Source: the human T2T-CHM13v2.0 reference genome, Homo sapiens | Length of the DNA stretch: 64,000 nucleotides | Direction: 5' to 3' (one strand) | Assembly (NCBI RefSeq): GCF_009914755.1 | Contig: NC_060933.1 | Part shown: one piece after another, positions 4,028 to 12,910 of the stretch | Numbering within the stretch: the first letter of the stretch is position 1 | Layout of the letters: every line of letters begins with the position of its first letter | Translations under genes and position numbers: made by a program | Notes under the pieces: generated by a model | What the model was told of the DNA's origin: nothing | What the model saw: only the letters and a program-made list of their open reading frames with translations | The model's database searches: none

Positions 4028-4195
4028 TTTGCAGATGGACTTTCCTGTCGAGAAGTCCCCCCCCACACAGCATCTCCTCGTGCAAAGCTTAGGTCTCGCC
4101 TTTGCCAGTTCTTTGCCCATATAAGGTATTACAGAGTGTGTTCTCAATGAGGCCCACCTTGCCCTCCTGGAGATAGAAGGGTGGTGACAGTTGCA
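4028..4195 (-). pseudogene. PRSS47P: PRSS47P exon 5 with premature stop and +1 frameshift
   Basis: Reads QLSPPFYLQEGKVGLIENTLCNTLYGQRTGKGET*ALHEEMLCGG, then a G8 run shifts the frame to DFSTGKSICK; AAA|gtgagt donor. Length is 168 nt where the phases require 167. Confidence 0.9.
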
Positions 4196-5035: not shown

Positions 5036-5477
5036 AGCTATCCTGGTGCTGTCTTTTACATGCTAATGATATAGATAATTTTTAGTAGAAAGTGACAGAT
5101 TATATGAAATAATAAATTAAAAAATATTTTAGATTAAGTGATATGAAGAAAATAAAACAGGAAGATGTGATAGAGGGGGTTGCCTATTTTAGCTCACATG
5201 ATTAAGTAAAACCAAGAAAAAAAACTGAATAGTAAATGTAAAGAAGTGACTCCTGCAAAGATGAGAATGACAAGCAAGCTAAGAAAAAAAAAAAACAGCA
5301 GCTAAAGGCCCCGAGATAGAAATAGCCTTGAGATGTTCAAAGAGTACCCAGGAGGCCCAAGAGGATGGGGTGGGGTATGTGAAGGCTGCAGTAAAAGATG
5401 GGGTATGTAATGGCTGCAGTGAAATATGAAGAATGGAAAGGGTGCATTGGAAGGTGGGATGTGTCATGACTGGAGCA

Positions 5478-5725
5478 GGAGATGGGGGATGTGAAGGGTG
5501 CGGTGGGAGGTGGGGGATGTGAAGGGTGTGGTGGGAGGTGGGGGATGTGAAGGGTGCGGTGGGAGGTGGGGGATGTGAAGGGTGCGGTGGGAGGTGGGGG
5601 ATGTGAAGGGTGCGGTGGGAGGTGGGGGATGTGAAGGGTGCTGTGGGAGATGGGGGATGTGAAGGGTGTGGTGGGAGGTGGGGGATGGGAAGGGCGCGGT
5701 GGGAGGTGGGGGATGGGAAGGGTGC
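5478..5725. repeat. 28-bp G-rich minisatellite, about 8-9 copies
   Basis: Unit gggggatgtgaagggtgcggtgggaggt repeated with few substitutions. Confidence 0.93.
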
Positions 5726-6444
5726 TGGAATTGCAGGCATGAGCCACCACGCCTGGCCATGTGTCTGGATTTCATTTTGCACAAATGAGAAGTTACTGTA
5801 GAATACTGAACCGGGAAGTGACATGACTAATATTTAAAGTAACACTCCGACACCCACATGGAGCCTACAGTGGGGGCACAGAAGAATGGAAGCTGGGTGA
5901 CCAGTTCCGAAGCTACAGGCAAGAAATGGTGGTCTATCAGTGTCATGCAGCACGGTGGTACCAGCCCAGGAGCACCGTTTGGGATATTAAAACAAGTATA
6001 TGTTGCCTCTACCCTCAAGGTATAACCAGATGTATGTGTGAATGCTGGGGACCAGCCAGCAGATGATCAGGGAGAATCCCCTCCATCTGGCAGTCAAAGG
6101 CCATGGATGCTAGCAGAGCCCCACTCAGTGAAGACATATTCTATCAAAAATACGTACAGCACCTCTGTTGAGAAATGCTAACCCTACACATAATTAAATA
6201 TATGTTCTTCCTTTTTCCCTTAACATCATACCATAAGCATTTCCCTAAACTGTAAACACTCCTTTCTTCAATAAACACTCTTGTGTATAAATCTTTGCTT
6301 ACATTTCTTTCCTACTCATCTAACGATGAAAACACACACAACTCTCTCCTCTGTTATTCAGTCACGTAACAAGACTGTGAAGTAGATGAATGACCCAGGT
6401 TAGGATAAGAGCAACATGAGGTTCAGAGAAGGTCAAGAGTTCTA

Positions 6445-6983
<539 letters not shown>

Positions 6984-7248
6984 TCAAAGAACCCAGATTC
7001 TGGATTCTCAAAAGTTAAAGATTCCCAGACTTTCAGAGCCTGGGACTCAGGGAACTCTAAAGCTATGGGATCACAAACTTTCAGAAGTAGAAAGGCCCCA
7101 GCGTGGTGGTCCTCACCTTACCGGTCATGGAAATGAGGCACAGAGGGCCAAGTCCAGTGGCTTCCTCTTTGCCTGGCTAAGCCATCCTTCCTTCTTCCCC
7201 TCTGCCTCCCTCTCCTTCCCCTCCCTCATCCTCCCGCCTCTCCCACAC

Positions 7249-7535
7249 CCCTCTTATGGTCTTCGGTGAGCATTCCCCAGCCGGTTATCCAACAGGACAC
7301 GTTACTGGGCAGCTGCATGTCCCGGGATGGGAGGCAGACAGGGACAATGTAGGAAGTGAAGTTCATAGGCAGGTGCAGCTGCAACATGGCAATGTCACTC
7401 CCAAAGGGGTGGAGCTTCTCAAAGTCTGGATGGGTGATGATCCGGTGCACAGACATCTTCTGGGTGTGCTGGGTTTGATGATACAGTTGGATGTTTCCCA
7501 ACAGAACCTGATAGTTCTTCGGGGCCTGGGATTTG
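7249..7535 (-). pseudogene. PRSS47P: PRSS47P Asp102 exon
   Basis: ctccag| acceptor; encodes IITHPDF...SDIAMLQL...PVCLP...CWITGWG. The expected donor reads C|ataaga (7258/7257), with a cryptic G|gtgtgg at 7249. Confidence 0.92.
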
Positions 7536-9024
7536 CTGGAGGAGGAAGGGCCCATTTTTACCATTCTCTGAGAGTGCGGGGCAGCACTCTCTTTTTACAT
7601 CCACTTGTAACTGCCCACACACCTCTGGGTCCTTCTCCCCTGACATGATTCTAGGCAGCTTTGTATCCCCCTTTCTGACAGTCAGGAGCTCTTTTTTTTT
7701 TTTTGAGGCTAATGGCTATTCTACTCACAACCTCAGGACATATGGCTTCCCCAGCACACCCTTGAATCAGAGGAGCAGAGAATCCTAGTGCCAGGAAAGT
7801 CCTTGACAGAGTCATCAAATCCAGCCCTTTTATTTTACACAAGAGGAGCTCTGGCTTAATTCTGGCTCCAGCCTGATCCTTCCGAAGGCTACCTATGACC
7901 TGCTTCCTGGCCTAACCACCTTTCCTGCTCTCCCCAAGGGTGTCTTCCCCACTGTTGTAAGCACTCATAAAGGATTTGTTCAATGCCCAGATGAGTGCAT
8001 GAAACTGATGCTCTTCTTGTTCCTGAACACAAGTAATGAAACTTCTGACCTTTGTGACTTTGTTCACATGGGTCAGCTGCCAGGAAACCCCTCGCCACAC
8101 TCCCCATACCAAAGCCTCCCCTCTGGCAATCCCCTGCAGCTCCTCATCCTCCCTCAAGACTACAGCATCTCTCTGGATGACCCTGCCTCGGGTCAGCTCT
8201 TCTCACTCACTCTGGGCTTTCTCTCCTGCATCCTGCTTGTTGGAGCTTGTGCCTCGCCTTCCCATAGAGACACCTTCACTTGGGGTCTTGCCACACTCTG
8301 TGCCATAGAGGGTCTTGGGTGGTGTGACACCCAGGAGATGCTCACGGTGCCCAATAGTTGGAGTCTCAAAGCCACTAGGTGCCCAAGCTGACTCCATACC
8401 TGGACTGTGATGCCTTCCTCTCCCTCTGGGTCCCTCCATGACTGTTCAGAAGCTGGGCACTGAGTCAGGCTCAGGAGGGCCAGAGGAGTAGCACCCCTGA
8501 CTGTCCATGTCATTCTCCAGGGTCAGGGGGCCCCACTCTTCCCACCAATACATGCAGCCTGGCACAGCTCCTTCCAGGCATACAGTTTTACAGAAAAAAA
8601 GCATCGCCTGGCTGCTGGCTACCTGCAGAGTCCCCAGTCCCTGCCTGGAGTCTGACTCACAGGAGCATGGTGCACACTGAAGAGAAGCCCTGCAGGTGGC
8701 CAGCACAGACACTGCCAATGCTCTCACGCATGTCTGGGTTGAGCAGACAGACACAGGGGCCAGGGAACTCCCTGCCAGAGCTGAGGATGAAGGATGAGGA
8801 GGTTCTGGGCAGATGGAGGGACAGTGGGTGGAGAGTGGGGAGGACAGTCCTGGTGGAGGGGACTACGGGTCAACGGCAGGCACTGCATCAGTTTGGTGGC
8901 AGCAGACTTCCCCAGAGCAAAGCCCAGAGGAGAAAGACATAACCCCCCCAGCCCCCTAACCCTCGTCCCTTGCATCTTCCTCCCCATCAGCCCCTCTGCT
9001 GGGGCCCAGGGAGGGAGGACTCAC

Positions 9025-9209
9025 TTGAGAAAGCAGTGGGTAGTTGATACCAGCCAGCAGGAGTCGATGAGGACAGCTCCACAGAGGTGCGAGCCCCAGT
9101 AGAGCAGGCTGGCCTGCCATGGCCACTGGCCAGCTGCTGCGTCCCGGCCACCATAGATCTTCCCCACCACCTTAGGCTTCCCACACACTGTGGAGACACC
9201 CCGGTCCAC
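9025..9209 (-). pseudogene. PRSS47P: PRSS47P activation-site/His57 exon (alternative acceptor at 9187)
   Basis: Encodes [54 protein letters not shown]; AA|gtgagt donor. Confidence 0.92.
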
Positions 9210-10003
9210 CTGTTAGAGACACTAGTGGTGCCCATGAATGCCACCCCAGTGAGGCCTCTGCTCTCTTCACAGATGGGAAAACCAAGGCCAAAGAATAGGT
9301 GACCTGGCCAAAATGACTGAGGGCTACTCCAGCATCTGCCTTCTATGGCCACTAGCAGGACCAGATGACAGAGTACAATTGAGCAGGCTCTGTGGGAATG
9401 AGGGACCAGGGGTCTGGCAGGCAGGGCAAGGCTGACCCAGGGTGGCCACAGCAGCTCATCCGGACCTGCCAAGGACTGGTGGACTGGAATCCAGCCCTGG
9501 GACTTTACTTCCCTCCATCAGAACACCTGCATGCCTACTTTGCAGATCAAAGAACTGAAGGTCTCGGGGGTGTCCAAGTGGCTGTGCCCACCCCCGCACC
9601 TCACTCCAGTATCCCAGGGAGAGAGATTCTCAGGCAGGAGTCTGTTGTGCTGTGTGACTTGGGGAAACTTGCTCCCTCTCTCTGATTCTTGATCTTCTAT
9701 TTTTAGAAGGTGAGAGGGGGTGGGGCTGATGTGGACAGCCTTGGTTCTGAGACTCACAGCTGGGAGGGGGAGCTGCGGGCCTGGACCCCTGAGGGGCAGT
9801 GTCCTGATCCCTGGCCTACGCTTCCAGGCCTCAACAAGGGGACATGAGACCCCAGGGCCCACCCCACTCCCGGGGCCCAGCAGCAGTCCCGGTGCTGTCT
9901 CCCTCCACCCAGCCCCGGCACCAGGCACCAGGCCCTGGCACCCCGTCCAGTTTCGTGGGCCCCACACCCAGTCCTGGGACCAAGAGCGGGAAGCCTGACC
10001 CAC

Positions 10004-10034
10004 CTTGCTTGATGTCGTCTCTGGAGCCACCTGG
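10004..10034 (-). pseudogene. PRSS47P: PRSS47P mini-exon 2 with tandem acceptors (10034 and 10030)
   Basis: Long pyrimidine tract then cag|CCAG|GTGG; AAG|gtgggt donor. Confidence 0.6.
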
Positions 10035-10059: not shown

Positions 10060-10720
10060 CGGATTCGGGTGACTTCCGGCCCTGGCACCAGGCCCAGAGC
10101 CCCGGCCTTCTCCCCACCGCCTCTAGCCTGCAGTTCCCCCATCTCTCCGCAGACGCCTGCCTCTCCCGGACACTCCTTACCTCATCTGGTCTTGCCGAGC
10201 CCTCGACCCCCTGCCCCCGTGGCCCAGTGGCCCCCTCAAATGCCCCCTGCCCCCTGCCCTCTGCCTCCGAGGCCGGCTCGGCCCCACACCCTCTGCTTCA
10301 AACGGACCTTGGGCTCTGGCTGCGGGCTCCCGGCCCTGCTGCGCCCCCAAGCTCTCTCTGGCCTCCCCCGGAGCCTGCGAGGGGCTGGCGGCGCGGGACT
10401 GTGGGGCAGGGGCGGCCTCTGGGCTCAGGAGCAGCAGCGGCAGCAGAGACCAGAGCAGGGGCCCCGGCTGGGCTCTGGTCCGCGTTGACCCCACACCCAT
10501 CATCGCCTGACACGAGGACAGAAGGAAGGGGAACTGGAGCTGACCCTGACCCCCGAAACAGGCGGTGACTCCTGGCCCTGACTCCTGGGAAACAGGTCCT
10601 GACCTCGCCCTGACCCCAGCCCCAGACAGGCGCTGAACCCGTCCCTAACCCCCTCCCAAGACAGCCCCTGACCCCGCCCTGACCCTCCCCATGTCCGACC
10701 CCTGAGACCCAGGAAGCAGT
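10060..10720. promoter_or_regulatory. CpG-rich island / probable promoter of PRSS47P
   Basis: Visibly high GC and CpG content and GC boxes (ggggcgg, ccccgccc), spanning the putative exon 1. Confidence 0.6.
10181..10503 (-). pseudogene. PRSS47P: PRSS47P putative exon 1 with signal peptide
   Basis: ATG at 10503, hydrophobic LLWSLLPLLLLSPEAAP, and a strong GAG|gtaagg donor at 10181/10180, all within a CpG-rich region. Confidence 0.6.
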
Positions 10721-10966
10721 CTTTTGCCAAAGAATTCCTTAGGCAGCGGCAGGTTCCAGAACAAAGGAGAGGGTGAAAGCTGCGGGGAGCCTGTCAATCC
10801 TTCTTTCCACTACAGAGCCAGGTGTCTGGGAGGACCTATGGTGCGCTGCCTAGCCCACCGAATGAGGCAGGGACAGAAGGCGCTATGGCTGTAGGTTGCC
10901 GTCACTGGGCCAGTGTAGCCATCACCTGGCCCGGCTGTGAGGCCCCATAGGCAGCTGTCCATCTAC

Positions 10967-11086
10967 AGTGTCTGGCAGGTTTTTGCTGGTCAGCAGCTGA
11001 GCTAGTGCCAAGAAGGCCTCTTTCTCCTTGGGGAACATCAGCAGGACAACAGCGACCTGGCTCACACCCTGGCAGTAGCCCATGTC
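10967..11086 (-). pseudogene. TBC (Rab-GAP) Gln-finger exon remnant (DMGYCQGVSQVAVVLLMFPKEKEAFLALAQLLTSKNLPDT)
   Basis: actcttgcag| acceptor, GYCQG motif and EAFxALxQLL helix. Co-linear with recalled USP6NL [32 protein letters not shown]. Confidence 0.85.
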
Positions 11087-11243
11087 CTGCAAGAGTCAAA
11101 GTCACTGCGCTAGAACCTCACCTGGCAGGGCAGAGGTCACCTGGGAGGATAGACCTCACCTGAGAGATCTGAGGTCACCTGGGAGGCCTAAGGTCACCTG
11201 AGAGGCCCCCATCTCAGGCCTTGCAGGATTTGACACTAGGCAC

Positions 11244-11292
11244 CCTTCTCCTGACAGAATAAGCCCAAAGCACACAAAATAAAGCCTGCTGC
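11244..11292 (-). pseudogene. TBC (Rab-GAP) domain exon remnant, USP6NL/TBC1D3-like (QQALFCVLWAYSVRRR)
   Basis: tctcttttctag| acceptor, 49 nt, AGG|gt donor. Co-linear with recalled USP6NL QQSLFHVLAAYSIYNT. Confidence 0.8.
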
Positions 11293-11419
11293 CTAGAAAA
11301 GAGACAAAAGAATGTTGTGTTTGTTTTGTGCTAATGCTGTTTAATTTTGTAGCAAACCCTGACAATGCAACTGAGGCCCTTTTAAGATTGTCTGCCAAGT
11401 AAGTAGTGAGATCTTCAGG

Positions 11420-12450
<1,031 letters not shown>

Positions 12451-12626
12451 CCCCAGGCCCCGCCTTTTCCCTCCAGGCATCTGTGAAACGCACAGTGCAC
12501 ACCCAGCTGCTCTGGCCTGGCCCCCAGCCTCACCTCAGCACCATTTCCTGCTGCATCACTCTGGCTGCAGCTCAGCGGCTCTTTCCCCCTGGCCCTCTGT
12601 CCCCACCCCGCTCACTGTTCACTGGG

Positions 12627-12910
12627 TGATATGGTTTGGCTGAGACTGGATAATTTAATTCCATCTCAAATTGTAATCCCCATAGTCCCCATGTGTTGAG
12701 GGAGGGCCTGGTGAGAGGTGATTGGATTGTGGGAGTGGTGTCCCCCAGGCCTGTTGCCATGTAAGATGTGCCTGCTTCCCCTTCCGCCATGATAGTAAGT
12801 TTCCTAAGGCCTCCCCAGCCATGCAGAACTGAGTCAATTAAACCTCTTTCCTTTATAAATTACTCAGTCTCGTGTGGCGACTTTATAGCAGAGTGAAAAC
12901 TGACTAATAC
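12627..12910 (+). mobile_element. MST (MaLR) LTR
   Basis: tgatatggtttggct ... gactaataca termini. Confidence 0.85.

What the first reader, a model, noticed from the sequence alone, without database searches (positions are those of the whole stretch)
10926..11292. Hidden two-exon TBC/Rab-GAP module splices in frame into the serine protease: a candidate TBC-protease chimeric locus
Seen: on the minus strand a 49-nt exon (11292-11244, ag|...|gt) and a 120-nt exon (11086-10967) are separated by a 157-nt intron. They join without stops into QQALFCVLWAYSVRRR-DMGYCQGVSQVAVVLLMFPKEKEAFLALAQLL. A further donor (CAG|gtgatg, 10926) is phase 2, matching acceptor 10034, so the frame continues through [23 protein letters not shown] into the protease domain. 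Established: YxQ (GYCQG) is the catalytic glutamine finger of TBC Rab-GAPs. The peptide and exon sizes match my recollection of USP6NL and its TBC1D3/USP6 derivatives, and USP6 itself arose as a TBC-protease chimera. Inference: an intron-containing TBC gene fragment was duplicated next to PRSS47 and can act as an alternative 5' end without a signal peptide. The Arg-finger exon is not visible (L1 starts upstream), so GAP activity is unlikely. From memory, the database model of putative PRSS47 starts MGYCQG; I do not recall its TBC origin being noted.
Basis: partly seen in the sequence, partly recalled or inferred. Interest (0 to 1): 0.85.

Follow-up and report, generated by a model that had tools for sequence, protein, structure and literature searches.

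The report
Orphan TBC1D3-lineage gene fragment beside PRSS47P
Just upstream of the dead protease gene PRSS47P lies a 1.6-kb leftover piece of an early TBC1D3-type Rab-GAP gene that still reads in frame into the protease, but both parts are broken, so it is an evolutionary relic and not a working fusion gene.

Summary
Exon B (11086-10967) hits Pfam RabGAP-TBC above the curated cut-off, and its best solved-structure match is USP6NL. About 1.6 kb (about 12443 to about 10860, minus strand) is collinear at about 70% identity with every TBC1D3-family gene, including intron sequence and a shared, equally truncated old L1.

It is a fragment only. No other TBC exon lies in window 1-30735. The last 13 nt and donor of "exon A" are not homologous. 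Exon B is 120 nt against the ancestral 121. The in-frame donor at 10926 is a window-specific GT in former intron.

PRSS47's own signal-peptide exon (10503-10181) sits between the fragment and the shared acceptor at 10034, in the same phase. The protease carries a TAA and a frame change in one exon, so no TBC-protease protein can be made from this assembly.

New point: this copy and USP6NL keep the catalytic Gln (GYCQG), whereas 34 of 34 other family copies have Arg. An L1-rooted tree places this copy outside all six family members tested, on a short branch. Transcription could not be tested. Interest is modest.

The parts
12137..12443 (-). 5' part of an old, 5'-truncated L1 fragment (ORF2 C-terminal region), shared with the TBC1D3-family intron. 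The upstream limit of the homologous block is at about 12443.
   Evidence: Translation resembles the L1 ORF2 C-terminus (the L1 name is my recollection). The genome holds 1781 candidates, of which 39 were scored, at 71-82% identity. The segment is collinear with TBC1D3 L013 5589-5778. Four unrelated L1 copies align only from about 12443 down, and two of them extend at least 500 nt further upstream.
11830..12136 (.). Alu inserted into the L1, present only in the window copy
   Evidence: Masked repeat 11781-12136. It matches Alus in other loci at 72-87% and is absent from the collinear family sequence.
11293..11829 (-). 3' part of the same L1 (to about 11436) plus about 140 nt of TBC intron up to the exon A acceptor
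   Evidence: One contiguous alignment of about 69-70% identity, 11285-11829, to TBC1D3, TBC1D26/28 and LOC100420311 runs from the L1 through the intron into exon A.
11244..11292 (-). 'Exon A'. The acceptor and first 36 nt are homologous to USP6NL/TBC1D3 exon A (QQALFCVLWAYS). The last 13 nt and the donor AGG|GTGCCT are not recognisably homologous.
   Evidence: Identity to USP6NL is 25 of 36, then 5 of 13. To the family it is 19-24 of 36, then 1-3 of 13. The acceptor is conserved. tblastn to the USP6NL exon gives 9 of 13 identical, E 0.036 in a small database.
11087..11243 (-). Retained TBC intron, 157 nt against at least 470 nt in family genes. It contains a 19-nt tandem repeat at 11118-11205.
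   Evidence: Alignment A1; Tandem Repeats Finder; DNA homology from 11187 downward.
10967..11086 (-). Exon B, the TBC Gln-finger exon (DMGYCQGVSQVAVVLLMFPKEKEAFLALAQLLTSKNLPDT). It is 120 nt against the ancestral 121, and the ancestral donor is weakened to ACT|GTAGAT.
   Evidence: Pfam PF00566 E 4.5e-7. USP6NL structure 9ltp_A E 2e-5. Exon B is 121 nt in USP6NL and TBC1D3. Alignment A1.
10926..10966 (-). Former TBC intron read through in frame to a window-specific donor CAG|GTGATG (phase 2)
   Evidence: In A1 the six paralogs read GGGGA / GGGAA at this place, without the GT.
10860..10925 (-). Last stretch of homologous TBC intron. The block ends at about 10860-10876.
   Evidence: blastn ends at 10876-10908. 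A1. The flank beyond scores at chance: 75 and 76 of 200 shuffles reach the observed score.
10181..10503 (-). PRSS47's own first coding exon: ATGATG..., a hydrophobic signal-peptide-like start (LLWSLLPLLLLSPEA), donor GAG|GTAAGG, same phase as the 10926 donor
   Evidence: read from the sequence. No Pfam family, as expected.
10004..10034 (-). 31-nt PRSS47P exon (S)QVAPETTSSK, the acceptor shared by both possible upstream exons
9024..9212 (-). Stop-free stretch holding the trypsin His-57 exon, from 9209 ([12 protein letters not shown]...STTHCF)
   Evidence: Pfam Trypsin E 9.8e-12, profile 1-45
7229..7594 (-). Stop-free stretch holding the trypsin Asp-102 exon (GSDIAMLQL ... CWITGWG)
   Evidence: Pfam Trypsin E 3.5e-15, profile 47-132
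4028..4195 (-). Disabled PRSS47P exon: in-frame TAA at 4091-4089 and a frame change at the run of eight G at 4064-4057. The GDSGGP exon lies beyond the window start.
   Evidence: sequence. GDSGGPLVC is at L031 1503-1174 on the minus strand.

Best explanation
The finding is an orphan, non-functional fragment of the TBC1D3 lineage, the primate gene family derived from USP6NL. A block of about 1.6 kb (about 1.3 kb without a later Alu) was copied as genomic DNA. It consists of a 5'-truncated intronic L1, the rest of that intron, exon A, a shortened intron, exon B and about 100 nt of the next intron. It now lies about 360 bp upstream of the PRSS47 start codon, on the same strand.

The copy split from the line leading to all other human TBC1D3-type copies before that line lost the catalytic Gln (Gln to Arg) and before it went through a strongly GC-biased burst of change. 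The copy has since drifted neutrally. It lost the exon A/intron junction, lost 1 nt of exon B, and had its ancestral donors weakened.

The open frame is inherited. The in-frame link to PRSS47P exon 2 rests on a new GT in former intron and a 1-in-3 phase match. At most the fragment supplies alternative, largely untranslated 5' exons to transcripts of a pseudogene.

Shown: the homology, the bounds of the block, the lesions and the branching order. Inferred: the copying mechanism, the date (roughly stem-simian to early primate) and the lack of function.
For: - Family identity: Pfam and PDB hits. There are 36 paralogous DNA matches, all at TBC1D3-type loci. Homology is collinear through intron and L1.
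- Bounds: both flanks score at chance (14, 40 and 55 of 200 shuffles upstream; 75 and 76 of 200 downstream), while an internal control gives 0 of 200.
- Fragment only: tblastn of 468 stop-free segments of TBC1D3, TBC1D26 and TBC1D28 against window 1-30735 finds exon B plus L1/Alu-derived matches and no other TBC exon.
- Early branch: Gln is kept in the window and USP6NL, while Arg is found in 34 of 34 other copies. In the tree of 452 L1 columns rooted on four unrelated L1 copies, window + family has support 100/99 and the family without the window 100/100. The window end branch is 0.088. The family stem is 0.22 plus 0.10-0.13 (same topology on 201 columns).
- GC-biased family stem: 36 AT>GC against 1 GC>AT changes, versus 7 against 8 on the window branch.
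- Neutral drift: 5 synonymous to 18 non-synonymous changes on the window branch, against 20% synonymous expected at random.
- Lesions.
- Protease disabled.
- RefSeq lists PRSS47P as a pseudogene with no transcript rows.
Against: - Both acceptors are intact with good polypyrimidine tracts, and the 10926 donor fits 7 of 9 consensus positions, so splicing is possible.
- The RefSeq pseudogene span reaches 11663 and so covers both TBC exons. This suggests that some earlier model or transcript started upstream of them.
- The upstream end of the block coincides with the L1's 5' end. A random DNA duplication does not predict this.
- Exon changes on the window branch (23 in 147 nt) are denser than the 0.088 per site of the L1 part. 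The exons may have had a different history, or the small samples may mislead.
- The tree rests on 452 columns and six family members. Composition differs between rows, as the tool flagged.
- No other species and no RNA data could be examined.
Confidence: 0.78

Rival explanations
1. One reading: a working chimeric locus in which the TBC exons give PRSS47 an alternative, signal-peptide-less N-terminus, making a TBC-remnant/serine-protease fusion protein.
For: Frames and phases do join. The ATG of MGYCQG has G at -3 and +4. The His, Asp and Ser motifs are all still encoded. The RefSeq gene span includes the TBC exons.
Against: TAA 4091-4089 and a frame change lie in the exon before GDSGGP. Exon change on the window branch is neutral, 5:18. 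The in-frame donor is new and the ancestral donors have decayed. A native exon 1 with a stronger donor lies nearer to the acceptor. If a transcript began at the RefSeq gene end (11663) and ran unspliced to 11244, nine ATGs would precede the MGYCQG start (counted by eye). Only 43 of 216 TBC profile positions are present.
Confidence: 0.03
2. The fragment is a relic, but it is transcribed: its exons serve as alternative non-coding first exons of PRSS47P transcripts, which is why database models could start at MGYCQG.
For: Intact acceptors and a usable 10926 donor. The RefSeq gene span reaches 11663 (annotation given; one search shows no exon rows). TBC1D3-family genes are most highly expressed in testis according to a review passage (PMC6920530), as are many testis proteases (the latter is my recollection).
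Against: No expression data are available here. The exon A donor fits only 6 of 9 consensus positions and lacks +4A and +5G. RefSeq gives no transcript. One search found no named protein of 142-453 aa sharing three 5-residue words with the stretch around SQVAPETTSSK.
Confidence: 0.3
3. Origin by an L1-linked RNA route (3'-transduction-like exon shuffling) and not by DNA duplication: the L1 and the downstream exons moved together.
For: The block begins at the L1's 5' end, and the flank beyond is unrelated. The layout is L1 3' end followed by unique downstream sequence. The window L1 is no closer to the family L1 (K2P 0.39-0.42) than to unrelated copies (72-74% identity), so little shared history followed the insertion.
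Against: The family L1 is truncated at the same place within about 10 nt, so it could not have been an autonomous source. No A-rich tail or target-site duplication is visible at about 10860. The tree has an internal branch of 0.085 between the outgroup copies and window + family. The intron is retained.
Confidence: 0.12
4. In-situ relic: the ancestral proto-TBC1D3 gene lay beside PRSS47, the chr17 family was copied from it, and the rest of the gene was later deleted here.
For: The window copy is the earliest branch and keeps ancestral states: Gln, low GC, short branch.
Against: Only 2 of the 14 exons that a preprint passage gives for TBC1D3 remain, and both flanks are unrelated to family introns. 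This reading needs two deletions, one ending at the L1 boundary. PRSS47's start lies 360 bp downstream, which leaves no room for the 3' exons.
Confidence: 0.07

Closest known systems
TBC1D3 gene family and its annotated pseudogenes (TBC1D3P1-P7, LOC100420311, TBC1D26, TBC1D28; USP6 N-terminal part)
   Same: Shares exon B, the first 36 nt of exon A, both acceptors, intron sequence, a 19-nt repeat motif and the same truncated intronic L1, at about 70% identity.
   Different: It is on chr9q22, outside the chr17 duplicon. Only two exons are present. It keeps Gln where 34 of 34 others have Arg. It branches outside the six members tested and has not undergone their GC-ward change. RefSeq does not annotate it as TBC1D3-related.
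USP6NL (RN-tre), the parent Rab-GAP gene
   Same: Best protein match: 48% over 33 residues and PDB 9ltp_A. Same GYCQG motif, same exon A length and same phases.
   Different: No intron or L1 homology to USP6NL was detected in the 10 kb fetched. Exon B is 120 nt here and 121 nt in USP6NL. No Arg-finger exon and no other exons are present.
USP6 (Tre2), a hominoid chimera of TBC1D3 and USP32
   Same: TBC exons lie upstream of, and in frame with, a protease gene.
   Different: USP6 is an expressed coding fusion of most of a TBC domain with a ubiquitin protease (my recollection of Paulding et al. 2003, which appears in the reference list seen). Here a 56-codon remnant precedes a disabled trypsin-type pseudogene that also has its own first exon.
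L1-mediated exon shuffling (3' transduction)
   Same: An L1 3' end is followed by unique downstream exons, and the block starts at the L1 5' end.
   Different: No poly(A) tail or target-site duplication is seen. The putative source L1 is equally truncated.

Membership tests
RabGAP-TBC domain (Pfam PF00566) | Sequence match to the domain profile above the curated cut-off | tested here: met
   30.2 bits against a cut-off of 25.2, E 4.5e-7, but only profile positions 86-128 of 216
RabGAP-TBC domain (Pfam PF00566) | Gln finger (YxQ motif) | tested here: met
   MGYCQGVSQ aligns with VGYCQGMSQ of USP6NL 9ltp_A and with GYCQG of RabGAP1L, TBC1D1 and others. That this motif is the catalytic Gln finger is established knowledge and was not tested here.
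RabGAP-TBC domain (Pfam PF00566) | Arg finger (IxxDxxR) and the rest of the roughly 200-residue fold | tested here: not met
   No other TBC exon in window 1-30735 (tblastn of 468 segments). Homology stops at about 12443.
TBC1D3 lineage (USP6NL-derived primate family) | Non-coding homology (introns, shared L1) to family genes and not to USP6NL | tested here: met
   The L1-rooted clade of window + family has support 100/99.
TBC1D3 lineage (USP6NL-derived primate family) | Family-wide Gln-to-Arg change at the finger codon and a GC-shifted sequence | tested here: not met
   The window has Gln; 34 of 34 other copies have Arg. GC is 0.415 here against 0.50-0.56 in the family. So this is a stem offshoot and not a crown member.
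TBC1D3 lineage (USP6NL-derived primate family) | Ancestral exon sizes and donors (49 nt and 121 nt) | tested here: not met
   Exon B is 120 nt with donor GTAGAT. Exon A's last 13 nt and donor are not homologous.
Expressed chimeric gene of the USP6 type | One intact open reading frame across both parts | tested here: not met
   TAA 4091-4089 and a frame change at 4064-4057 in the protease part
Expressed chimeric gene of the USP6 type | Fusion transcript with the predicted junctions | not testable with these tools
RefSeq gives no transcript for PRSS47P.
L1 3' transduction product | Poly(A) tail and target-site duplication at the ends; a source L1 at least as long as the copy | tested here: not met
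   No A-run at about 10860. The family L1 ends at the same L1 position within about 10 nt. At about 40% divergence the tail and duplication could have decayed, so this part is inconclusive.
Trypsin-like serine protease (PF00089), for the downstream gene | His, Asp and Ser motifs in one open frame | tested here: not met
   The motifs are present: TTHCF and SDIAML (Pfam hits) and GDSGGP. The frame is broken.

The most novel reading that the evidence does not exclude
In an early primate, an L1-bounded block carrying two exons of the proto-TBC1D3 gene, which still had its Gln finger, was placed in front of PRSS47 in the same orientation. There it was used as an alternative first-exon pair that swapped the protease's signal peptide for a TBC remnant. 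This would be a natural exon-shuffling event that preceded, and perhaps contributed to, the death of PRSS47 in the human line. The fragment would also be the only surviving witness of the TBC1D3 ancestor before its GC-biased burst and loss of the catalytic Gln.
Probability: 0.1. Interest if true: 0.55.

Novelty: new member of a known kind. Interest (0 to 1): 0.3.

Why it matters
The TBC1D3 family is studied for its possible role in human cortical expansion. Its origin from USP6NL is described as complex: only 34% amino-acid identity despite 13 of 14 shared exon boundaries (passage of bioRxiv 10.64898/2026.01.14.699559). It is also described as exclusive to simians (passage of bioRxiv 10.1101/2024.03.12.584650).

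A slowly evolving offshoot that split before the Gln-to-Arg change gives an internal outgroup. It indicates that the loss of the catalytic Gln and a 36:1 AT-to-GC burst happened on the family stem, after this copy left. That can help date and polarise the early changes.

For annotation, it explains why any PRSS47 model that begins upstream of the native ATG would carry a TBC-like N-terminus. It argues that such a model is an artefact of a pseudogene and not a new kind of protease.

Tried and rejected
- Chance ORF or no TBC homology: rejected.
- Processed retrocopy: rejected, because intron and L1 are retained.
- More TBC exons hidden in the window: none found. This covered blastn of window 1-30000 against 10 family loci and tblastn of 468 segments against window 1-30735. 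USP6NL exons outside the 10 kb fetched were not used as queries.
- Independent L1 insertions at the two loci: rejected by the contiguous alignment across L1, intron and exon, and by the same truncation point.
- Naming the source of the 13 non-homologous nt of exon A: the best match in the TBC1D3 intron is reached by 96 of 1000 shuffles, so no claim is made. Global alignments with cheap gaps were over-fitted and discarded.
- First codon count: it had the USP6NL exon A slice off by one base. It was discarded and redone.
- MAFFT distances to outgroup L1 copies are inflated by forced alignment of unrelated tails. Only the window-family and family-family values were used.
- The conserved piece upstream of the L1 in TBC1D3 shows no IxxDxxR in any frame. 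Not pursued.
- Literature: "PRSS47" occurs in 4 papers (search listing only; none concerns gene structure by title or abstract). "A8MTI9", "serine protease 47" and "PRSS47P" occur in 0 papers. The main text of the TBC1D3 evolution preprint has 0 occurrences of "chromosome 9" and of "USP6NL". Supplements are closed and may list orphan copies.
- Dates: these rest on substitution rates that I recalled, and are rough.
Full report
1. WHAT IS IN THE SEQUENCE

On the minus strand the features sit at the stated coordinates.
- Exon A is 11292-11244 (TTTTCTAG|GCA ... AGG|GTGCCT).
- A 157-nt intron follows.
- Exon B runs from 11086 (TTGCAG|GAC ATG GGC TAC TGC CAG GGT).
- The two exons read QQALFCVLWAYSVRRR and DMGYCQGVSQVAVVLLMFPKEKEAFLALAQLLTSKNLPDT.
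- The frame continues past a weak GT at 10966 (ACT|GTAGAT) to CAG|GTGATG after 10926. That donor leaves two bases, which the acceptor at 10034 completes. The 31-nt exon 10034-10004 then joins the exon starting at 9209 in phase 0.

Two points put the join in proportion. About half of random 13-codon stretches lack a stop, and one donor phase in three fits a given acceptor. The join is real but weak evidence by itself (my arithmetic).

2. THE TBC ORIGIN IS REAL

- The 53-residue translation from 11086 hits Pfam RabGAP-TBC at E 4.5e-7 (30.2 bits, cut-off 25.2), covering profile positions 86-128 of 216.
- Against all PDB chains the best match is USP6NL (9ltp_A, E 2e-5), with [17 protein letters not shown] aligned to MGYCQGVSQVAVVLLMF.
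- A DNA search of the whole reference with 10900-11350 gave 36 non-self matches at 67-79% identity.
- Every match lies in a TBC1D3-type gene or pseudogene (TBC1D3, B, D-I, K; USP6; TBC1D3P1-P5; TBC1D28; LOC100420311; LOC124905656) or in unannotated copies. These unannotated copies lie mostly next to CDRT15P pseudogenes in pericentromeric and acrocentric DNA, plus chr1:245.94 Mb and chr19:19.88 Mb.
- Matches in closed regions are not shown, so the count is a lower bound.
- The protein search added the USP6NL exon (48% over 33 residues) and TBC1D26.

3. EXTENT AND ANATOMY OF THE FRAGMENT

blastn of window 1-30000 against ten family loci shows three collinear segments against TBC1D3: 10886-11187, 11285-11829 and 12246-12432. 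The gap between the last two is filled by a window-specific Alu at 11830-12136.

The stretch 11436-12443 is an old L1 3' fragment:
- its translation resembles the ORF2 C-terminus (the name is my recollection);
- the genome holds 1781 candidate copies, of which 39 were scored, at 71-82% identity.

The alignment runs without a break from the L1 through about 140 nt of intron into exon A, so the L1 is the same insertion in the window and in the family. Four unrelated L1 copies align to the window only from about 12443 downward. They align to TBC1D3, TBC1D28 and the chr1 copy from the same L1 position within about 10 nt. Two of those four copies continue at least 500 nt further upstream.

Beyond about 12443, and beyond about 10860, local alignment scores against family introns are at chance:
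- upstream, 14, 40 and 55 of 200 shuffles reach the observed score;
- downstream, 75 and 76 of 200;
- an internal control gives 0 of 200.

No other TBC exon is found in window 1-30735 with 468 translated segments of TBC1D3, TBC1D26 and TBC1D28. The fragment is therefore about 1.6 kb, or about 1.3 kb without the Alu.

4. THE FRAGMENT IS DECAYED

- USP6NL has exons of 49 and 121 nt with GTAAGT/GTAAGA donors. TBC1D3 has the same sizes.
- In the window, exon B is 120 nt to the homologous donor, which reads GTAGAT where the family has GTAGGT or GTAAGT.
- The first 36 nt of exon A are 25 of 36 identical to USP6NL. The last 13 nt are 5 of 13 identical to USP6NL and 1-3 of 13 to seven family rows, whereas the family keeps 7-8 of 13 with USP6NL.
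- The intron is 157 nt against at least 470 nt in the family.
- A deletion across the exon A/intron junction is the simplest reading. The source of the 13 nt is not established: 96 of 1000 shuffles reach the best intron match. The equality of 49 nt is therefore probably a coincidence of where a GT happens to lie.
- The donor at 10926 lies in former intron. All six aligned paralogs have GG there, not GT.
- At sites where USP6NL and TBC1D3 agree, the window differs at 23 positions, 5 synonymous and 18 non-synonymous. That is the proportion expected for random changes (20% synonymous).

5. PLACE IN THE FAMILY

All 34 other copies with an exon B homologue carry Arg at the Gln-finger codon (GYCRD, GYHRD, GYYRD, GYRRD, GYCRA and similar). 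The window and USP6NL carry Gln. TBC1D28 was left out because no exon B homologue was found in its 10-kb locus.

A maximum-likelihood tree of 452 columns of the shared L1, rooted on four unrelated L1 copies, gives:
- support 100/99 for window + family;
- support 100/100 for the six family rows without the window;
- a window end branch of 0.088;
- a family stem of 0.22, followed by 0.10-0.13.
A tree of 201 columns agrees.

The tool warns of unequal composition between rows, and that is the biology here. GC is 0.34-0.36 in the outgroup copies, 0.415 in the window and 0.50-0.56 in the family. Changes shared by all family rows are 36 AT>GC, 1 GC>AT and 4 other. Changes private to the window are 7, 8 and 1.

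K2P distances are 0.39-0.42 between window and family, and 0.28 between TBC1D3 and TBC1D26/28.

On date: TBC1D3 and USP6 are 0.068 apart on the tree, and USP6 is hominoid (recollection). On that scale, 0.088 on the window branch suggests a split somewhere between the stem of simians and early primates. This is rough, and it rests on rates I recalled.

6. THE PROTEASE SIDE

- PRSS47 has its own first coding exon between the fragment and the shared acceptor. It starts ATGATG at 10503, has a hydrophobic signal-like start, and ends GAG|GTAAGG at 10181, in the same phase as the 10926 donor.
- Trypsin-domain exons are confirmed at 9209 onward and within 7594-7229 (Pfam E 9.8e-12 and 3.5e-15).
- The GDSGGP exon lies just outside the window.
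- The exon 4195-4028 has an in-frame TAA (4091-4089). Its 3' part (GGDFSTGKSICK) is in a different frame from its 5' part, with the switch at a run of eight G.
- RefSeq calls the gene a pseudogene and lists no transcript. Its span, up to 11663, covers both TBC exons.

7. ORIGIN MECHANISM: UNRESOLVED

Retained intron and L1 show that genomic or unspliced sequence was copied. The block starts at the L1's 5' end, which a random breakpoint does not predict. The family L1 is truncated at the same point, which argues against a classical 3' transduction from that L1. No A-tail or target-site duplication is visible. I keep DNA-level partial duplication as the default and list the L1-linked route and the in-situ relic as rivals.

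8. WHAT IS KNOWN

- Review and preprint passages describe TBC1D3 as derived from USP6NL by segmental duplication, with 13 of 14 exon boundaries shared and 34% identity, and as expanded on chromosome 17 (PMC6920530; bioRxiv 10.64898/2026.01.14.699559).
- A primate survey suggests that the family is exclusive to simians. Its main text does not contain "chromosome 9" (passages).
- "PRSS47" occurs in four papers, none about its structure by title or abstract (listing).
- I found no mention of this fragment. Supplements, which I could not open, may list it.

9. VERDICT

This is a real but ordinary kind of object: an unannotated, early-branching pseudogene fragment of the TBC1D3 lineage, which happens to keep an open frame into a dead protease gene. 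The chimera idea is not supported as a coding gene. Transcript use is untested. The fragment has modest value as an internal outgroup for the early history of TBC1D3.

Noticed in passing
window 10703-10820: This 118-nt stretch lies between the TBC fragment and the PRSS47 start. It has a single 84%-identical copy at G000 C9:100167323-100167438, in unannotated intergenic DNA. It might be a second small piece that came in with the block.
   Followed up: partly
window 11118-11205: A 19-nt tandem repeat (4.6 copies, 75% matches) fills most of the retained TBC intron. Family genes show 2-3 units of the same CCCAGGTGACCTC-like motif at the 3' end of their longer intron.
   Followed up: partly
loci L013, L015, L016, L021, L012, L002 (TBC1D3-family intronic L1): The stem of the TBC1D3 family shows a strongly GC-biased burst: 36 AT>GC against 1 GC>AT changes in 452 shared L1 columns. 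It is also about 2.6 times as many polarised changes as on the window branch (41 against 16). This may underlie the family's reported fast divergence from USP6NL.
   Followed up: partly
window 4028-4195 and L031 1174-1503: The PRSS47P lesions in this assembly are TAA at 4091-4089 and a frame change at the G-run 4064-4057. The His, Asp and Ser motifs and the native signal-peptide exon are otherwise still readable.
   Followed up: yes
G000 chr9 (40.15, 41.96, 47.83, 78.01 Mb), chr2 (132.21, 132.26 Mb), chr13, 14, 15, 18, 21, 22 (loci L022, L036, L039-L050): Sixteen copies of the TBC1D3-type Gln-finger exon (GYYRD/GYHRD forms, two with a stop) have no annotated gene overlapping them. They lie in pericentromeric and acrocentric DNA, mostly next to CDRT15P pseudogenes.
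   Followed up: partly
L015 (TBC1D28, G000 C17:18581077-18591076): No homologue of exon B was found in the 10 kb fetched for TBC1D28, although exon A and the L1 are present. The nearly identical TBC1D26 has it.
   Followed up: no
window 5282-5833, minus strand: Three overlapping long stop-free frames rich in Pro, His, Ser and Thr repeat units (PHLPPHPSHPPPPTAPFTSPTSH...) lie inside a PRSS47P intron. This is a tandem repeat of unknown origin.
   Followed up: no
window 12622-12755: A short interspersed repeat lies just upstream of the block. The genome holds more than 1200 candidates at 77-90% identity over about 95-130 nt. It shows that the upstream flank is old, unrelated sequence.
   Followed up: no
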